Of a DNA stretch of 64,000 nt, positions 2,830-53,953 are shown piece after piece (position 1 is the stretch's first letter; every line of letters begins with the position of its first letter). A program made the position numbers and the translations under genes. Source of the stretch: a virus; IMG/VR virus record IMGVR_UViG_3300041955_000531; one strand, given 5' to 3'. A model generated the notes under the pieces. It was not told where the DNA came from. It did no database searches and was given only the letters and a program-made list of their open reading frames with translations.

Positions 2830-4344
2830 ATGTTCAATCCAGTCTTCAACTCCGTTCAGACCAGCCAGCTAATCCTTAACAGGATCGCGCGCGTTGCTAA
2901 TCAACTGCGTTCATTCAAGGCTTATACTCAGGTTGACTACCAGGCAGAGGTTTACAGCGCTGTTAATGGCGTGCTGAATCTTGGAAATAAGATGACTCCG
3001 CCTGCTTACTTCGCTGGACAGACGCCAGCTACAGTAGGAAATATAACTACCTATCTAGGTAACCTGAATAATGATGGGAATGACGTCGCCGCGGAAGTGA
3101 CTTCTATCGAGACTCAGATCGCCCAGTATTATAACCTATCCGCCGGGGTTCAGAATACCCTGCGTCAAACAGTCCGTGAGCAGGTATACGCTTCGATCGC
3201 CAATCAATACATTGAAGCGTTCGTCAATGATGCTCAGATGCAGCCAGGTTATACAGCCAACCTGGACTTTAATGCTGGTGTGGCTACATGCCCTCTGACT
3301 TCGGATACTACAATCAATCCGACCACCGTTATTACAGGACCATCGAGTATTAGCTCAACAGCTACAGCAAACAATAACTACGATCCGATGCAGCTGCTGA
3401 ATCCTACAAACTCTGTAACAAATGTAGTGGTATGGAATGGCTCCCAGCTTGAGCTGCAACTACAGTTCTCTACTCCTACGCCACTGAACCGACTGATTAT
3501 TCACCAGGACAACTATGAGGGTCTGGAGATCATAAGCCTGACTAGTTCGCCTGATGGGATCTACTTCGATGAGATCGATGCGGAACTCTTCCCGTCGGAT
3601 CTTACACTTGATGCGCAGTCTGGCAAGTATAGTGGTGACGCGATCATCGACTTCAACCCGCGCACTGTCAGCGTTCTTAAGCTTGTGGTTGCTGACTTGA
3701 TTGGACAAGGCTACGTCGCTCTTCGCGGCATCGAAACACACCAGCGAGTCTTCGCTTCCTCGGGGCAGTTCACTTCCAACCCGATATACACTCCTACAGG
3801 GCTCGTGAACTTCTCGACTTTGCAGCGTATCTATCCTCAGCTGACACAGATCACTCACCAGCTCTCCTATGACGGAGTCCACTTCTCAGTGATACAACCC
3901 GGGCAGGCTATCTCCCTGGTTAGCTCCCCGTTCTGGTACCGTGCACAGCTGGACGTCGTCACTACGGCTTTCAACTCGGCCGCCAGCCCGCTAGCACAAG
4001 GCAATGGGGACCCTGGGACATCTCCGAACTATACCCTGGGTAATATAACCAGTACTAATCTTAATGGCGGGGTATTACAACGTAATATAGTATTCACTTC
4101 GGTGACCGGCCCGATCGTTTTGAATGAAACCCCGATCCCGAACACCTTGGCTGTCTACTACGGTTCTACCTTGCAACCCTCGACGGCTTATGTATTTACG
4201 AACAATACCCTTACTCTGGCAGTGTTGCCGCAGAGCAACGTAACGGTCCGCTATCAGACCTCCACCTTTGGTACGGCCGGCCTGGCATCCCTGCAGAACA
4301 ACTTTACGCCCTATCTATTCCAAGCATCATTCGAGCAAGCATAA
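2830..4344 (+). CDS. Putative baseplate/tail structural protein
   Basis: 504 aa; similar architecture to neighbours (helical N-terminus, discoidin-like beta segment around TSSPDGIYF). Confidence 0.6.
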   Translation: MFNPVFNSVQTSQLILNRIARVANQLRSFKAYTQVDYQAEVYSAVNGVLNLGNKMTPPAYFAGQTPATVGNITTYLGNLNNDGNDVAAEVTSIETQIAQYYNLSAGVQNTLRQTVREQVYASIANQYIEAFVNDAQMQPGYTANLDFNAGVATCPLTSDTTINPTTVITGPSSISSTATANNNYDPMQLLNPTNSVTNVVVWNGSQLELQLQFSTPTPLNRLIIHQDNYEGLEIISLTSSPDGIYFDEIDAELFPSDLTLDAQSGKYSGDAIIDFNPRTVSVLKLVVADLIGQGYVALRGIETHQRVFASSGQFTSNPIYTPTGLVNFSTLQRIYPQLTQITHQLSYDGVHFSVIQPGQAISLVSSPFWYRAQLDVVTTAFNSAASPLAQGNGDPGTSPNYTLGNITSTNLNGGVLQRNIVFTSVTGPIVLNETPIPNTLAVYYGSTLQPSTAYVFTNNTLTLAVLPQSNVTVRYQTSTFGTAGLASLQNNFTPYLFQASFEQA

Positions 4345-16490: not shown

Positions 16491-17432
16491 TTAGACTGAT
16501 GGTCGATGGTGATGATGGTGATGGTGATGCTCGTGATGATGATGTCGATGATCATGGCATTCTGGATTCTTGCAATGCCATTCATCAACCAGCGCGCGCA
16601 TCTGAGGTGGCTTGTTTTGTGCGGCGTAATAGCGATGCGAGAGGGTGTTGTTCACACCTGATGTGGTTTGATTTTCCCACATACGCTCTTTCCAATGGAC
16701 CCAGTCTTGTATCCCTTGGGGTCCAATCTGTGGGTGCCACATGTGCAGAACCTGTCCAGGCATAGTCTTGTGCATTCCATAGAGTGTATCCATGGCACGC
16801 ATAGCGGCATGATCCTCACCGCCCCAGCCGCGGAAGCGAACATCCCAACCACCTACCAGCTCAAAAGCCTCACGAGGTACGATCTGAATCATTGCCCCAT
16901 AGTAATGACCGACTCCTGGATCAGTATCTCCCAGGATATACTCTGCATCTGGGGGAGAAGAGAATGTTGATGGTGATGCAGGATCAGATTGTAGCAAGTG
17001 CTTCGATGCTGTCTCTGTCAGACGATAGAACTTGCGATAAGGAACGAACCAGAGCTTATGCCCACGCTTACGGGCGTGGCGAATCTCCTCTACGCAATGT
17101 ATAACTACATCAGCAGTAACATATCCGTCTGCATCCACGATGACAAATACATCACCGCTAGCTTTGGATGCTGCAGCGTTCACTGCAACTGACTTGGAGA
17201 ATGGTTCTATATTAGGCTCGTCGCCAATAATGATCTCGGCGCCTGGAAGCTGAGTAGCCCAATATCTCTTAAGCCATGCAATGTTTCTTATGCGGGGACT
17301 TGATTGGTCGGTGCAACGGAATGGAATCAAGATACTTACTCCATGTCCCTTACGCAGCCGCCATGCAGCCAGGTATGCGAGGCCACTCGCAGCCAAGACT
17401 GACATAGCTGTGATGAGCATAACTGGGGTCAT
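16491..17432 (-). CDS. GT-A glycosyltransferase (GT2/GT7-like) with N-terminal TM and poly-His tail
   Basis: SILIPFR, DAD and GGWDVRFRGWGGED motifs. Confidence 0.85.
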   Translation of the reverse strand: MTPVMLITAMSVLAASGLAYLAAWRLRKGHGVSILIPFRCTDQSSPRIRNIAWLKRYWATQLPGAEIIIGDEPNIEPFSKSVAVNAAASKASGDVFVIVDADGYVTADVVIHCVEEIRHARKRGHKLWFVPYRKFYRLTETASKHLLQSDPASPSTFSSPPDAEYILGDTDPGVGHYYGAMIQIVPREAFELVGGWDVRFRGWGGEDHAAMRAMDTLYGMHKTMPGQVLHMWHPQIGPQGIQDWVHWKERMWENQTTSGVNNTLSHRYYAAQNKPPQMRALVDEWHCKNPECHDHRHHHHEHHHHHHHHRPSV

Positions 17433-18205
17433 TTCAACTCCCTTCCAAGCGCTCTGAAGGCATCATAGACGGCGAACTTGACATCTTCAACAAAGAACCT
17501 GTTAGGTGTTGTTACTTTCCCTGTAATGAATGGTGTCTTGATCGAGGCGCTGTAGTCCCTGAACTTGAAATCCCCACCATCTTTTGTCAGCTTTGGGCAC
17601 ATCTCCACTCTGCGTGGAATGGCGAAGCCATCTGCTACAATCATACCGTGTAGCGAAGAGGTTACAATCTTGCGGCATGCACCGATCTGGCGTATGACTT
17701 CCAGTGGGTCACCAGTCGGGTCAATAACTTTAGTGGTATAAGGCTTTTGAATCAGAGGAATGAATCGTGCTGCCAGCTCTTTGTCTTGCCAGTGCGGCAC
17801 GATGCCTAGGTCCCATTGCTTCTCTTGTAGTCCTACAAGTTCATCGGCTAGTATGCCTGGATCGCCGATAGCAAAGCTACCTGGTATTCCTTTTGCTGAT
17901 AATGGGCCACGAATGGCGAGTATCTTGGCTGTTACGCCAGACTTAAGTTGTTGCAGTTGCAGGCGGGAGTTTTCAATCAGCCTGCCAGATCCAAGAATAT
18001 AGCCGTCCCACAATGGCGGGATGTGTTCAAGTATCGAACCGACTGATGCTATTGAAGAATGAGAAATCGTATCCCACTCCACCTTGACTTCGGCGAAGTG
18101 TTCGAGCAATAAAGGCGCCATCGTATCGCCAAAGTTAGGAACTTGATTCCACCAATACGCTTTGACTGTATGATCTGCGAAGGGGTTTTGAAACCTGAAC
18201 TTCAT
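17429..18205 (-). CDS. Polysaccharide pyruvyl transferase (ExoV-like)
   Basis: PNFGD, GSIL, AIRGPLS, GDPG, IVPH and SSLHGMIVAD motifs. Confidence 0.85.
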   Translation of the reverse strand: MKFRFQNPFADHTVKAYWWNQVPNFGDTMAPLLLEHFAEVKVEWDTISHSSIASVGSILEHIPPLWDGYILGSGRLIENSRLQLQQLKSGVTAKILAIRGPLSAKGIPGSFAIGDPGILADELVGLQEKQWDLGIVPHWQDKELAARFIPLIQKPYTTKVIDPTGDPLEVIRQIGACRKIVTSSLHGMIVADGFAIPRRVEMCPKLTKDGGDFKFRDYSASIKTPFITGKVTTPNRFFVEDVKFAVYDAFRALGRELK

Positions 18206-19197: not shown

Positions 19198-19272
19198 TGG
19201 CGGAACCAGCGGGAATCGAACCCGCATCCCACCCGTGACAGGGGTGCGTCATAGCCATTAGACCATGGCTCC
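19198..19272 (-). tRNA. tRNA-Asp(GTC)
   Basis: CACCC-CTGTCAC-GGGTG; CCA. Confidence 0.92.
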
Positions 19273-19593
19273 GTGATGTTTCATTCGGTGATGGTTAGCA
19301 CACAGGATGTCACACTTAGCTATTTCTTCCTGGATGCGTTTCAACGACCATCCCTTACGATTAAAGGAGCCGATCTCGAAAGACTTCTGCGCAGGATTTC
19401 TGTGATGGAAATCCAAGGCACTTGGGTGTTCTTTGAAACCACATACCTTGCAGCCTCTCTCGAGTTTATAGTCTTCGATCCACTTCTTGTTCCGAGCTAT
19501 CCGTAGCTTATCACACTTGCGGACGGCTTTCAAATGCTTCTTGCGATTCGCTGGATTACTATACCACTTCTTCCAAGCTTCTTGATTACTCAT
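19258..19593 (-). CDS. HNH endonuclease
   Basis: CKVCG...LDFHH...CDILCANHHR; 3' end overlaps tRNA-Asp. Confidence 0.9.
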   Translation of the reverse strand: MSNQEAWKKWYSNPANRKKHLKAVRKCDKLRIARNKKWIEDYKLERGCKVCGFKEHPSALDFHHRNPAQKSFEIGSFNRKGWSLKRIQEEIAKCDILCANHHRMKHHGAMV

Positions 19594-20811: not shown

Positions 20812-20853
20812 TGGTGGAGCAGATGGGAATCGAACCCTCTCTCAAAACCTTAT
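20812..20853 (-). pseudogene. 3' half of a split tRNA-Ala
   Basis: GGG TTCGATT CCC AT-CTGCTCC-ACCA; acceptor strand complements GGGGCAG at 21493-21499. Confidence 0.85.
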
Positions 20854-20886
20854 AGCTCCTATACTATTCAAATATAGAGGAGCTTT

Positions 20887-20962
20887 TGGTGGAGCATGCG
20901 AGATTTGAACTCGCCGCCTCCGCATTGCAAGTGCGGCGCTCTCCCAAATGAGCTAATGCCCC
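20887..20962 (-). tRNA. tRNA-Ala(TGC), intact replacement copy
   Basis: G3:U70; CCGCA-CTTGCAA-TGCGG; CCA. Confidence 0.95.
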
Positions 20963-20963
20963 A

Positions 20964-21455
20964 ATGAAAACTATAACACGAACCTGCTTAAATCCAAAAT
21001 GCAAGAAACAGTTTGAAGCTGAACTCCGAGAAGTACATCGCGGTAATGGTAAATATTGCTGTTTACAATGCTGCCTTAATCACATAAGACCAGTAGGTCG
21101 CACTTTACATACACTAACTTGTTCCTACTGCTTCAAAGAGTTTAAAGATGATCGACCCCTTGTGCCAGGTTTGCCTGATATTGTAGTGCCAGATATACTG
21201 CCTCGTCGATACTGTAGTCGGCAATGTAAGGATCTGAATCATAGAAATGATTGTCATGATGCTCGAACACTGGCGTTTCGCAACTTTCCACATAAATGCA
21301 ATCGCTGTAACTGGGATACAGAACCAGCGGTTCTGGAAGTTCATCACAAAGACCGCAACAGAGAAAACAATGAGCTATCTAATCTTGAACTACTTTGCCC
21401 AACTGATCATTGTTTAGATCACTTTCTTGCAAAAGATGGCAAGTGGCGCAAGTAA
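20964..21455 (+). CDS. HNH endonuclease with N-terminal zinc-binding repeats
   Basis: CxxC/YCSxxC repeats; CNRC...LEVHHKDRNRENNELSNLELLCPTDH. Confidence 0.9.
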   Translation: MKTITRTCLNPKCKKQFEAELREVHRGNGKYCCLQCCLNHIRPVGRTLHTLTCSYCFKEFKDDRPLVPGLPDIVVPDILPRRYCSRQCKDLNHRNDCHDARTLAFRNFPHKCNRCNWDTEPAVLEVHHKDRNRENNELSNLELLCPTDHCLDHFLAKDGKWRK

Positions 21456-21499
21456 CTTATGCTTGCAAAGCATCTGCGCTCCCGTTGCGCCACTGCCCC
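21456..21499 (-). pseudogene. 5' half of a split tRNA-Ala(TGC)
   Basis: GGGGCAG TG GCGC AACGGGA GCGC A GATGC TTTGCAA GCATA AG, then breaks off. Confidence 0.85.
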
Positions 21500-21510
21500 A
21501 CGGAAAATCT

Positions 21511-21621
21511 AATCCTAGATTGACAGCCGGACCAGCGGCGATAAGGTATGTCCGGATTGTGCGCGGCTTTTCTGGTTAGTATCCTGCGTCTAACCATCCT
21601 ATTGACCGCCAATCTAGGGTT
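21511..21621 (-). ncRNA. Candidate ~110-nt structured RNA
   Basis: 15-bp closing stem with G:U pairs on the - strand enclosing internal hairpins. Confidence 0.5.
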
Positions 21622-21652
21622 GATGACCAACTCAACTTGAGTTTGTCAAACT

Positions 21653-23234: not shown

Positions 23235-23639
23235 TCATGATTCCATTGTATCACACTGCCAGGCGTTCAGGCCATGGAACAGTGACTTACCTTTCTTCCT
23301 CGAACAAAAGACTGCAACCGCGGTTAAGAGGGCTTCTTCTGTCTGATAGTACCCGGGGTTGGTATCGCGAAACTCTTCCCACGGTAGACGCGCGTGTGAG
23401 ATTTGATGACGGACTTTCTCCAGCTCGTTGCTGTCAACGACTTTGAGGATGATGGTTGTGTGCTCTTCATCAGGGTCCAGTTTAAGTCTCAACTTCAGTT
23501 TCGATACTACATGACATGCCTGGGCTATACAACGGCCGCAAGACATCGGAATAATCTCCCTCAGGAACATCGTAGGTGATATTACGAATGAAGGGAGAAT
23601 AACGTAAATCCTTTTTTCAACTACGGTGCCTGGGGCCAA
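23235..23639 (-). CDS. Peptidyl-tRNA hydrolase (Pth2-like)
   Basis: MSCGRCIAQACH, TIILKV and RDTNP...TAVA match the Pth2 pattern. Confidence 0.75.
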   Translation of the reverse strand: MAPGTVVEKRIYVILPSFVISPTMFLREIIPMSCGRCIAQACHVVSKLKLRLKLDPDEEHTTIILKVVDSNELEKVRHQISHARLPWEEFRDTNPGYYQTEEALLTAVAVFCSRKKGKSLFHGLNAWQCDTMES

Positions 23640-23997
23640 GGACTCTACCTCTCAAAGCCATTCCAATCTTGGCTTTGTGTTCCTCAGACATAGGACCGCG
23701 TTTTGTTCCTGTCTGAGAACCACGGATCTTCGCTGCAATCGCTGGACTACCAGCTGTACGAATAGCATGACAGTTAGCGCAAACTAAATCGCACTTATCA
23801 GCCTCTCGTTTCAGTTCTTCAAGAGATCGATGTAATCCCGAGCTAATAGAAAAGAGTTTAGTACTCGGGTCACGATGATCAAAATGAAAGCAACAGTCAG
23901 GAAAGATATGATTGCAATCAAGACACTTGCCACCTTTGTAGAGAACAAGCTGATGTTTCTTCTCTTGGCGTTTACTCTTTAATCCTAACCATGTCAT
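23617..23997 (-). CDS. HNH endonuclease with NUMOD3-like tail
   Basis: CLDC...FDHRDP...CDLVCANCH; SEEHKAKIG. Confidence 0.9.
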   Translation of the reverse strand: MTWLGLKSKRQEKKHQLVLYKGGKCLDCNHIFPDCCFHFDHRDPSTKLFSISSGLHRSLEELKREADKCDLVCANCHAIRTAGSPAIAAKIRGSQTGTKRGPMSEEHKAKIGMALRGRVLGPRHRS

Positions 23998-52412: not shown

Positions 52413-52700
52413 TTACTTATCGTAGTGACGCTTGGCAATCCCATTGCGATCCAGAGTCTGGATGGCTGATATAGCCAGGCCTGCCACCTTCAACATATCC
52501 GTACGGAATCGGATAGGATTGAAGAGACGAGTCGTGCGATCCATTTCCACTGCCCGGCCGGCGTAGATCATGAGATAAGATGCCCAGTCATTGGCTGTGT
52601 TCTTATCATCGAACTCAGTACCCCAAAGGTTCTCGGCATACTCTTTCTCTGCCTTGATCTCAGCCACGATACTTTCGAACTGCTTTTCATCAAATGGCAT
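52413..52700 (-). CDS. MazG-like all-alpha protein
   Basis: E..Y....WG.EFDD.N...DW..Y...MLKVAGLAISAI. Confidence 0.55.
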   Translation of the reverse strand: MPFDEKQFESIVAEIKAEKEYAENLWGTEFDDKNTANDWASYLMIYAGRAVEMDRTTRLFNPIRFRTDMLKVAGLAISAIQTLDRNGIAKRHYDK

Positions 52701-53953
52701 TATACTTTCCTCTCAGCCTCTTCCGTTTCTTCTTCTTCCTGGGCTGCCAACATGTCGTTGACCATGGGCGCCAGGTCTGGGTACTCCAGAGCAATACAAG
52801 GGAACTTATAAGGGCAGTATCGGCACTGCCAGTCCCCAATAATAGGTCCGACCTTAGAGTCCTTCCACTTACGGCTCTTGCCGTTCTTCCAGGACTTCCA
52901 TTCGGCGAACTTAACCTTGCCAATGAAGCCCTTTTCAGCGAAGCTTTCGATAGCTATGTCGGTATAACGGTAGCGGTAGTCTGCTGGGGGTAGGTATGAC
53001 GTCGGTAGGCGTCTCATCTCCTCCCCAACCCTCTCCCAGAATGCCTTTTCCTGCTGTTTCCAGGCGATTACAGCCTCTTCCGGCGCTTCCGCGGGCAAGG
53101 AGGCTGGACGGACTGTCCCCTGCTCCTGGAGCCTCCGGATCGCTTCAGCCTGTGATCGGTTAAAGTAACCCTGGATCTGTTCGAAGCGTTCATAAATCGA
53201 CTCCACCGTGAAAATGCGCCAAACATCTCCGTTGACTTGAGGATAGTGGAGGCCATCATAATCCTCGTAGATTTCGATATCGAACTCCGCTGTGAGGCAG
53301 GTGTCTCGTGTCTCGTAGCAAATCTTTCCATACACGGGCGAATCATCTTTGATCATCCCTAGGTTGACGTCGGTGACACGGACTCGGTTGCGCGGATTAG
53401 TTGGTTTATCCGCTTGCGCAGTTGCAATGATTTGCTTGAGCAGGGCACCATTACGTATCTCGTTGATATAGATGAGTGTCTGGAGAACATGCTCGAGCTT
53501 TGGCTTCCCCTTCTGATAAGGGCCACCAATGATTTCCTTCTGGGCCATATAGCCGTAGATTGATTTGTTTTCACATATCACCGGTTGTCCTGACTGAGGG
53601 TCTATGACAATAAGGTCCAACTCAAAGGCCAGATCAATGTTCGGGACGTAGTGCCTGACCCCACTGGCAATATGCAGACCGGCCTCCATAGCCTGAAGCG
53701 TGGTATCTTCCTCAACGGCTTTACCAGTTCGAACTCGACGCGCACCGACGGGGTCCATCTGACTTGTAGTCTTCTCCCCTGTGAGCCTGTAATATACCTT
53801 TCGTCCACAGCCCCCGGCAAAACCCGCAACTGTGGGTTCGAGGAGGACAGCCGAACTCTCTGAAGGCCAGAGTCTGGCAGACTTGCTTGTCCAGTCATCA
53901 CGCTTCTCCATTCCAACTAGTGCTTTGTCGAGGTGCTCAAACAACTTAAACAT
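52700..53953 (-). CDS. Cas4-like PD-(D/E)XK exonuclease with Fe-S cysteines
   Basis: PSES..CGRKVYY, ELD, ENKS, QTLIY and CRYCPYKFPC. Confidence 0.8.
   Translation of the reverse strand: MFKLFEHLDKALVGMEKRDDWTSKSARLWPSESSAVLLEPTVAGFAGGCGRKVYYRLTGEKTTSQMDPVGARRVRTGKAVEEDTTLQAMEAGLHIASGVRHYVPNIDLAFELDLIVIDPQSGQPVICENKSIYGYMAQKEIIGGPYQKGKPKLEHVLQTLIYINEIRNGALLKQIIATAQADKPTNPRNRVRVTDVNLGMIKDDSPVYGKICYETRDTCLTAEFDIEIYEDYDGLHYPQVNGDVWRIFTVESIYERFEQIQGYFNRSQAEAIRRLQEQGTVRPASLPAEAPEEAVIAWKQQEKAFWERVGEEMRRLPTSYLPPADYRYRYTDIAIESFAEKGFIGKVKFAEWKSWKNGKSRKWKDSKVGPIIGDWQCRYCPYKFPCIALEYPDLAPMVNDMLAAQEEEETEEAERKV

What the first reader, a model, noticed from the sequence alone, without database searches (positions are those of the whole stretch)
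20812..21499. A tRNA-Ala gene split in two by an insert containing an HNH gene and a second, intact tRNA-Ala of the same anticodon
Seen: the 5' half (21456-21499, through the TGC anticodon arm) and 3' half (20812-20853) have complementary acceptor strands (GGGGCAG/CTGCTCC, G3:U70). ATAAG appears at both junctions. The ~600-bp insert holds an opposite-strand HNH gene, a full tRNA-Ala(TGC) of quite different sequence, and a hairpin (20854-20884) containing TATACTATTCAA facing the HNH gene. No group I intron core is visible. Inference: a tRNA nested in a tRNA, left by a homing cassette that destroys and replaces its target.
Basis: partly seen in the sequence, partly recalled or inferred. Interest (0 to 1): 0.85.

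Follow-up and report, generated by a model that had tools for sequence, protein, structure and literature searches.

The report
Nuclease cassette replaces phage alanine tRNA
In a wetland phage, a small piece of selfish DNA made of a DNA-cutting-enzyme gene and its own alanine tRNA gene sits inside the phage's original alanine tRNA gene and breaks it; close relatives still have the unbroken gene, and the same enzyme family does this to alanine tRNA genes in many other phages.

Summary
Confirmed. A 602-bp insert (20854-21455) splits a tRNA-Ala(TGC) gene. It holds an antisense zinc-finger HNH gene, a different intact tRNA-Ala(TGC) and a hairpin with a -10-like box. The empty site exists as DNA: two IMG/VR phage contigs (L210, L211) and a near-identical strain in two pond metagenomes carry the uninterrupted 75-nt gene, identical to the window's outer 44 and 26 nt, with no HNH or inner tRNA. 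The HNH family is tied to this tRNA: 42 of 73 non-redundant members lie within 100 nt of an intact tRNA-Ala (background 11/327), and 10 are clearly nested in a split tRNA-Ala whose acceptor strands pair (permutation p about 1e-5). Most 5' pieces end just after the anticodon loop. ATAAG is not a fixed target-site duplication, and joining there would not restore the wild-type tRNA, which argues against an intron. Best reading: a free-standing homing-type endonuclease that carries a whole replacement gene; cleavage and homing are inferred, not shown. I found no paper describing it; closest are T4 SegB, the Allomyces atp6 element and Lak-phage 'tRNA in a tRNA intron'. This scan has reported the same layout several times on other DNA.

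The parts
21456..21499 (-). 5' piece of the resident tRNA-Ala(TGC): acceptor 5' strand, D arm, whole anticodon arm and 2 nt of the variable loop (nt 1-44)
   Evidence: Identical to the first 44 nt of the intact gene in L210
20964..21455 (+). HNH endonuclease gene, 163 aa, antisense to the tRNA cluster: N-terminal Cys-rich (zinc-finger-like) modules and a C-terminal HNH motif; stop codon abuts the 5' piece, ATG lies 1 nt from the inner tRNA
   Evidence: Pfam HNH_3, PHROG HNH families, H127/H128/N140/H149/H153 invariant in 31 homologues, model mean pLDDT 89
20887..20962 (-). Intact replacement tRNA-Ala(TGC) with encoded CCA
   Evidence: ARAGORN, Rfam 67.1 bits, best-scoring tRNA in the window; absent from the empty allele
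20854..20884 (.). Hairpin (inverted repeat) between the inner tRNA and the 3' piece
   Evidence: hairpins holding TATACT at the same place in L009, L011 and L015
20860..20865 (+). TATACT, -10-like box facing the HNH gene (promoter inferred; no -35 found)
   Evidence: Sequence; present in 4 of the 5 closest loci, absent in L014; not called by the consensus scan
20838..20853 (-). Inner, altered part of the 3' piece: 8 nt matching the intact gene (nt 40-47, including the second ATAAG), then 8 nt that stand where the intact gene has 2
   Evidence: L009 has a related alteration beginning with the same four bases
20812..20837 (-). Outer part of the 3' piece: most of the T arm, acceptor 3' strand and CCA
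   Evidence: Identical to the last 26 nt of the intact gene; joint at 20837 in runs X5 and X7

Best explanation
This is a free-standing homing-type cassette that travels with a complete spare copy of the gene it breaks. SHOWN: the cassette (HNH + tRNA-Ala + hairpin) sits inside the resident tRNA-Ala(TGC) gene at the 3' side of the anticodon arm; relatives have the intact gene and no cassette; the family is tied to tRNA-Ala and repeatedly nested in it. INFERRED: (1) the HNH is transcribed from the box in the hairpin, across the antisense of its own tRNA, and is kept low by lying antisense to the tRNA operon; (2) in a mixed infection it cuts or nicks the other phage's tRNA-Ala gene near the 3' strand of the anticodon stem; (3) the phage's recombination system repairs the break from the cassette-bearing genome; with good flanking homology the whole gene is swapped and no remnants are left, while with a diverged partner the crossovers fall inside the conserved tRNA sequence and leave the recipient's two halves around the cassette; (4) the carried tRNA keeps alanine decoding, so no splicing is needed, and the halves are pseudogene scars that decay from the inside and can serve as short homology arms for the next jump.
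For: Empty site in L210/L211 and as a 618-bp DNA joint in runs X5 and X7 of two studies; no family member in the 215-kb relative, while two positive controls rang. 42/73 members next to an intact tRNA-Ala versus 11/327 other tRNAs; about 12 more lie next to atypical tRNA-Ala genes that ARAGORN missed. Ten clear nested loci with different old and inner tRNAs; 35/36 acceptor pairs at positions 4-7 in nine independent loci, reached by 4 of 362,880 permutations. 5' pieces next to 8 of 41 cassettes versus none in 157 kb farther away. Eight of ten 5' pieces end at about positions 39-46. Six of seven broken genes share a C-TTTGCA-(A/C)-G anticodon arm versus 1 of 10 inner tRNAs (Fisher p 0.004, post hoc). 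Nested cases fall at seven separate places of the protein tree. Catalytic residues conserved. The phage encodes a UvsX-like recombinase. Precedents: SegB cuts inside tRNA genes (PMC2330249); one-sided break repair at microhomologies is known in T4 (PMC2988022); endonuclease plus replacement gene end in Allomyces atp6 (PMC3630166).
Against: No cleavage, expression or inheritance data. The target motif is post hoc and not strict: L109's inner tRNA and L014's tRNA (62% identical HNH) carry it themselves, so self-immunity is not explained there. Two of ten 5' pieces end in or just after the D arm. The window's subclade has Asp in place of the second Cys of the last CxxC, with unknown effect. The window's box lacks a -35 and the gene has no evident Shine-Dalgarno site. 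Family members are related, so counts are not independent; the tree backbone is unresolved.
Confidence: 0.77

Rival explanations
1. Passenger model: tRNA-Ala alleles move between phage tRNA clusters by ordinary or illegitimate recombination at conserved tRNA sequence. The HNH is linked to tRNA-Ala by ancestry and is carried along, or cuts some other site nearby (as SegB cuts the T arm of many tRNAs); it did not cause this split.
For: tRNA alleles in this cluster are swapped often without this HNH (Pro, Asp, Asn differ among window, L009, L210, L202). L202 has a tRNA-Ala 64/76 identical to the window's inner tRNA at the same site with no HNH. Most family members show no remnants.
Against: The split gene is tRNA-Ala in every clear nested case. 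The link survives changes of side and strand (four layouts) across proteins only 30-45% identical, which simple linkage would not keep. Breaks cluster 3' of the anticodon, and broken genes share an anticodon-arm motif.
Confidence: 0.13
2. The insert is an intron of unknown type, or the halves work as a two-piece tRNA: the old tRNA is rejoined or assembles after RNase P and 3' processing release the inner tRNA.
For: The halves keep full acceptor pairing, CCA and the whole anticodon arm, and the outer parts are unmutated in both the window and L009 although their HNH proteins are only 64% identical. Joined at ATAAG, ARAGORN still draws an 81-nt tRNA.
Against: No intron family matches. Joining would not restore the wild-type sequence: it gives an 11-nt variable region and an A.A mismatch in the T stem. 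Break points vary among loci, and remnants are decayed in L042, L044, L015 and L052. A redundant same-anticodon tRNA would not be needed if splicing worked. The unmutated outer parts are explained by recent gain: the empty strain differs by 0 of 300 and 5 of 548 bases in the flanks.
Confidence: 0.06
3. A non-autonomous integrative or transposable unit inserted by a recombinase acting in trans, with ATAAG as crossover core or target-site duplication.
For: ATAAG is once in the empty allele and twice in the window; integrative elements commonly target tRNA genes (general knowledge).
Against: No fixed duplication across loci: none in L009, about 3 nt in L011, and breaks from the D loop to the variable loop elsewhere. 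No integrase or terminal repeats in the insert. Integrative elements rebuild the target by duplicating part of it and do not bring a whole divergent gene.
Confidence: 0.04

Closest known systems
Phage T4/T6 SegB, free-standing GIY-YIG homing endonuclease of the tRNA cluster (PMC2330249; PMC13096335)
   Same: Free-standing nuclease gene in a phage tRNA cluster; cuts inside tRNA genes; spreads together with neighbouring tRNA genes; a hairpin is proposed to limit expression.
   Different: SegB is GIY-YIG, recognises the T-arm motif shared by many tRNAs, shows no isotype preference (PMC13096335) and lies between tRNA genes. Here the nuclease is HNH, tied to one isotype, antisense, and found inside a broken gene with its own copy.
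Allomyces macrogynus atp6 mobile element and related fungal mitochondrial mORF gene hybrids (described in PMC3630166; the original paper, Paquin et al. 1994, was not held)
   Same: An endonuclease gene inserts into its target gene and stays neutral by bringing foreign replacement sequence; the displaced native part matches the empty relative.
   Different: There the element supplies only the 3' part of a protein gene and makes a hybrid. Here a whole tRNA gene is supplied and both native halves are abandoned, in a phage.
Lak megaphage 'tRNA introns', one predicted to encode a tRNA (tRNA-Thr(TGT); PMC6784885)
   Same: A tRNA-like gene nested in another tRNA gene, with alleles with and without the insert.
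   Different: Reported as enigmatic introns; the passages read mention no nuclease or mechanism. Whether they are nuclease-less versions of such cassettes was not tested here.
Fractured genes: split inteins with a free-standing endonuclease between the halves (PMC2677866)
   Same: A phage gene broken in two by a free-standing endonuclease gene that brings its own control elements.
   Different: Function is rescued by trans-splicing of protein halves, not by a spare gene; the main nuclease family there is Vsr-like.
Group I introns in tRNA anticodon loops with encoded homing endonucleases
   Same: Insertion near the anticodon of a tRNA gene with a nuclease ORF inside.
   Different: No ribozyme core, no fixed insertion point in the loop, and joining would not restore the tRNA.

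Membership tests
Free-standing homing endonuclease (intronless homing) | Nuclease gene of a known homing family outside any intron or intein | tested here: met
   Pfam HNH_3, PHROG HNH; no intron match
Free-standing homing endonuclease (intronless homing) | Optional presence: cognate alleles lacking the gene exist | tested here: met
   L210/L211 and runs X5/X7; no family member in G001 while controls rang
Free-standing homing endonuclease (intronless homing) | Intact catalytic motif | tested here: met
   H127, H128, N140, H149, H153 invariant in 31 sequences; one Cys-to-Asp change in the last CxxC of this subclade
Free-standing homing endonuclease (intronless homing) | Site-specific cleavage of the empty allele | not testable with these tools
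   Only indirect: clustered break points and a shared anticodon-arm motif
Free-standing homing endonuclease (intronless homing) | Donor allele resistant to cleavage | tested here: inconclusive
   9 of 10 inner tRNAs lack the motif of the broken genes, but L109 and L014 carry it
Free-standing homing endonuclease (intronless homing) | Nuclease-dependent biased inheritance in mixed infection | not testable with these tools
   No cultured phage or host
SegB family | GIY-YIG catalytic domain | tested here: not met
   Only HNH families match
SegB family | No tRNA isotype preference | tested here: not met
   42/73 next to tRNA-Ala versus 3.4% background
Group I / group II tRNA intron | Ribozyme core | tested here: not met
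   No Rfam intron match at gathering or at E up to 5
Group I / group II tRNA intron | Removal restores the exact exon sequence | tested here: not met
   Join gives 81 nt with altered variable loop and T stem versus the 75-nt intact gene
Group I / group II tRNA intron | Spliced RNA detected | tested here: inconclusive
   RNA run X4 contigs do not span either junction
Integrative element or transposon at a tRNA att site | Recombinase gene and fixed core or target-site duplication | tested here: not met
   No such ORF in the insert; overlap is 5 nt in the window, none in L009
Allomyces-type endonuclease plus replacement gene end | Inserted element carries divergent replacement sequence; displaced native part matches the empty relative | tested here: met
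   Inner tRNA 50/74 identical to the old gene; outer halves identical to L210
Allomyces-type endonuclease plus replacement gene end | Function restored as a hybrid of native 5' part and foreign 3' part | tested here: not met
   A complete separate tRNA is carried; both native halves are left aside

The most novel reading that the evidence does not exclude
A widespread, undescribed family of zinc-finger HNH endonucleases reads the anticodon arm of tRNA-Ala(TGC) genes as DNA, carries a resistant isoacceptor, and uses the scars of earlier targets as portable homology arms. It could then home into tRNA-Ala genes of unrelated phages without synteny, with a TGCA-containing site near its promoter acting as an autorepression operator. 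Such cassettes, after losing the nuclease, would explain published 'tRNA inside a tRNA intron' cases.
Probability: 0.35. Interest if true: 0.82.

Novelty: new variant of a known kind. Interest (0 to 1): 0.63.

Why it matters
Homing endonucleases are known to stay harmless inside genes by splicing (introns, inteins, split inteins) or by sitting between genes. Carrying a whole spare gene is a further solution, practical only for a target as small as a tRNA. It gives a concrete driver for the rapid allele turnover and mosaicism of phage tRNA clusters, which is usually read as adaptation to codon use or to host anticodon nucleases. It warns that predicted 'tRNA introns' in phages can be insertion scars. 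Here both alleles are known to the base, so the cleavage test needs only a 163-aa protein and two short DNA substrates.

Tried and rejected
The corrected pattern found L210/L211. The ARAGORN parse failed and was redone. The first acceptor test picked wrong 3' strands for L011 and L066 by a regular expression (32/36, p 6e-4); it was repeated with the profile-defined strands. L070 was wrongly taken into the cassette list and is left out of the counts. Neighbour-gene searches with 17429-18205 (L016-L033: no tRNAs) and with P0106, P0110, P0111 gave non-syntenic phages. RNA run X4 covers parts of the HNH gene and the flank but neither junction, so it says nothing on splicing or expression. A family-wide excess of -10 boxes on the HNH strand was not convincing (14/26 versus 9.6 expected, 13/26 on the other strand). 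I looked for a -35 box in the altered part of the 3' piece in either direction and found no fitting spacing. Sequence and fold searches of the PDB gave only weak HNH-domain matches, none at E 0.001. Matches in bacterial genomes were nearly all weaker relatives, mostly in Patescibacteria, and were not analysed further; two passed my family threshold (L122, L136). The huge-phage paper PMC7162821 has no main-text mention of introns. Literature searches for nested or split tRNA with endonuclease in phages found no description; the library lacks most subscription papers. No whole genome or host could be assigned.

Full report
Setting. The window is part of a large phage genome (primase-helicase, ribonucleotide reductase, UvsX-like recombinase) with 25 ARAGORN tRNA calls and a tmRNA on the minus strand. 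The best-matching runs are wetland metagenomes. No whole genome or host is held. A relative that is 83-94% identical in DNA is a 215-kb contig estimated complete.

Observation. Six contigs from ENA, JGI and Logan carry both halves and the inner tRNA at 100% identity, so this is not a misassembly. Rfam shows no intron in the insert at E up to 5.

Empty site. IMG/VR contigs L210 and L211 have the same gene order (Leu, Leu, Leu, Pro, Ala, small ORF, Trp, Ser, Phe) with one uninterrupted 75-nt tRNA-Ala(TGC). Its first 44 and last 26 nt are identical to the window's halves. Independently, contigs of two pond metagenomes from two studies join window position 20837 to 21456, skipping 618 bp with five other letters between, which rebuilds the same tRNA; one flank piece differs by 0 of 300 bases and another by 5 of 548. 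The 215-kb relative has no member of this HNH family, while two positive controls were found. A more distant syntenic phage (L202-L204) has a single tRNA-Ala at this site that is 64/76 identical to the window's inner tRNA, also with no HNH, so the inner tRNA is an ordinary allele of this phage group that the nuclease travels with. Direction: the intact gene is canonical and shared by several relatives, so the insert is the derived state; recent gain in the window's lineage is simplest, but a return to the intact allele by recombination in the pond strain is not excluded.

Junctions. ATAAG is nt 40-44 of the intact gene (standard positions 41-45) and appears on both sides in the window. In the sister phage L009, which has the same old tRNA but a 64% identical HNH and a quite different inner tRNA, the 5' piece stops at nt 41 and the 3' piece starts at nt 42, with no overlap. 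ATAAG is therefore not a fixed target-site duplication; both loci fit a break near standard position 42/43. In both, the inner part of the 3' piece is altered in a related way while the outer part matches the intact gene exactly. I infer that the inner part came with the donor cassette as an old scar and the outer part from the latest recipient, with the crossover in the conserved T arm. Joining the window's halves at ATAAG gives an 81-nt molecule with an 11-nt variable region and a T-stem mismatch, not the wild-type tRNA.

Family. The four closest homologues (61-64% identical) all start within 0-3 nt of the 5' end of an intact tRNA-Ala(TGC) on the opposite strand, a different tRNA each time; three of them (L009, L011, L015) are also nested in a split tRNA-Ala with a TATACT hairpin after the inner tRNA. 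Profile searches gave 73 full-length members under 90% identity; 42 lie within 100 nt of an intact tRNA-Ala (41 with TGC), whereas only 11 of 327 other tRNAs in the same loci are Ala. About 12 more lie beside atypical tRNA-Ala genes missed by ARAGORN. The commonest layout is the window's (26 of the 43 listed, one of which, L070, was mis-assigned), but all four combinations of side and strand occur. Ten loci are clearly nested (window, L009, L011, L015, L042, L044, L052, L062, L066, L109), and L051, L256 and L080 look so too. In nine independent loci the variable acceptor positions 4-7 pair in 35 of 36 cases; 4 of 362,880 permutations do as well, so the two pieces come from one gene each time. 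5' pieces flank 8 of 41 cassettes and none occur in 157 kb farther away; 3' pieces flank 10, with 0.13 expected. Stray tRNA 3' ends follow 14 of 39 cassettes but 8 of 193 other tRNAs. Nested cases fall at seven places of the protein tree, whose backbone is unresolved. These counts are not fully independent, because members are related.

Target. Eight of ten 5' pieces end at about positions 39-46. Six of seven independent broken genes with an anticodon arm share C-TTTGCA-(A/C)-G, against 1 of 10 inner tRNAs and 10 of 40 cassette tRNAs in all (p about 0.004 each; motif chosen after seeing the data). The window's old gene has the motif and its inner gene lacks it. L109 and L014 are exceptions. 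The protein folds confidently (mean pLDDT 89, low pTM 0.49, as expected for small linked modules), keeps the HNH catalytic residues and has no close solved relative.

Mechanism. Shown: insertion into the tRNA gene, replacement by a whole divergent copy, isotype-specific recurrence. Inferred: expression from the hairpin box across the antisense tRNA, cleavage near the anticodon stem, repair from the donor, and use of remnants as homology arms. T4 work shows that free-standing nucleases cut inside tRNA genes and spread with neighbouring tRNAs (PMC2330249) and that breaks can be repaired one-sidedly at microhomologies (PMC2988022). I put the whole model at 0.77, a passenger model at 0.13, an intron or two-piece tRNA at 0.06 and a recombinase-driven insertion at 0.04.

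Comparison and novelty. It works like a free-standing homing endonuclease and meets the membership features that can be tested from sequence; cleavage and biased inheritance are untested. It is not SegB (wrong nuclease family; SegB shows no isotype preference, PMC13096335) and not an intron. The logic is closest to the Allomyces atp6 element (PMC3630166), but with a whole gene instead of a gene end. The only published nested tRNA I found is the Lak-phage 'intron' predicted to encode a tRNA (PMC6784885). My searches found no description of nuclease-plus-replacement-tRNA cassettes. Earlier agents of this scan reported the same layout for tRNA-Leu, -Ala and -Thr in other phages and in Patescibacteria; I did not check those loci and do not count them as support. 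Verdict: real, a new variant of a known kind, interest 0.63.

Noticed in passing
L009:4473-4975 (minus) and window 20531/20538 in runs X5, X7: A second HNH family (same strand, PHROG 2255/3106-like by resemblance) splits tRNA-Trp(CCA) in L009: the old 5' half is left upstream, and after the HNH a new 5' part is fused to a 3' end like the resident one. The pond strain has 433 letters inserted in the same anticodon loop. This is the closer parallel to the Allomyces hybrid-gene element.
   Followed up: partly
window 19258-19593 and 23617-23997: Two more HNH genes (PHROG 2255/3106). The first runs into tRNA-Asp, the second follows tRNA-Asn. Both are absent at these places in L211/L210, whose Asp and Asn alleles differ from the window's; no split halves seen.
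   Followed up: partly
window 21510-21652 (minus): A 143-bp structured insert between tRNA-Pro and the 5' piece (z -3.0, long closing stem; no Rfam family). Absent from the empty alleles; L009 has an unrelated short ORF there. Possibly a small RNA, possibly co-inherited with the cassette.
   Followed up: partly
L035, L036, L038, L041, L051, L076, L101, L231, L256 next to the HNH gene: Many cassette tRNA-Ala genes have non-canonical T loops and are missed by ARAGORN; annotation undercounts them.
   Followed up: partly
80 nt after the cassette tRNA in the antisense layout (e.g. L039, L042, L091, L244): TGCA, the core of the Ala anticodon loop, occurs in 16 of 25 such regions against 43 of 212 after other tRNAs (post hoc). 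It may be an operator for autorepression, as for I-TevI, or decayed remnants. The window itself lacks it.
   Followed up: partly
window 21442-21451 and 21485-21494: The last codons of the HNH gene form a perfect 10-nt inverted repeat with the D arm of the old 5' piece; not kept in L009, so probably chance.
   Followed up: partly
L264, L271, L288: A long-branch subclade of the family sits among tRNA-Val genes with a stray Val-like 3' end upstream of its start, suggesting a switch of target isotype.
   Followed up: no
L122:2415-3013: A member abuts tRNA-Ala(TGC) in a tRNA array on a Floridaenema flaviceps (cyanobacterium) contig, so the cassette also reaches cellular assemblies or prophages.
   Followed up: no
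L035, about 3038-3125 (minus): ARAGORN calls a long-arm tRNA with anticodon ACT (Ser) right after the HNH stop; unusual.
   Followed up: no
window 23235-23639 and 52700-53953: A PTH2-type peptidyl-tRNA hydrolase inside the tRNA cluster and a Cas4-like nuclease (PHROG 1706).
   Followed up: no
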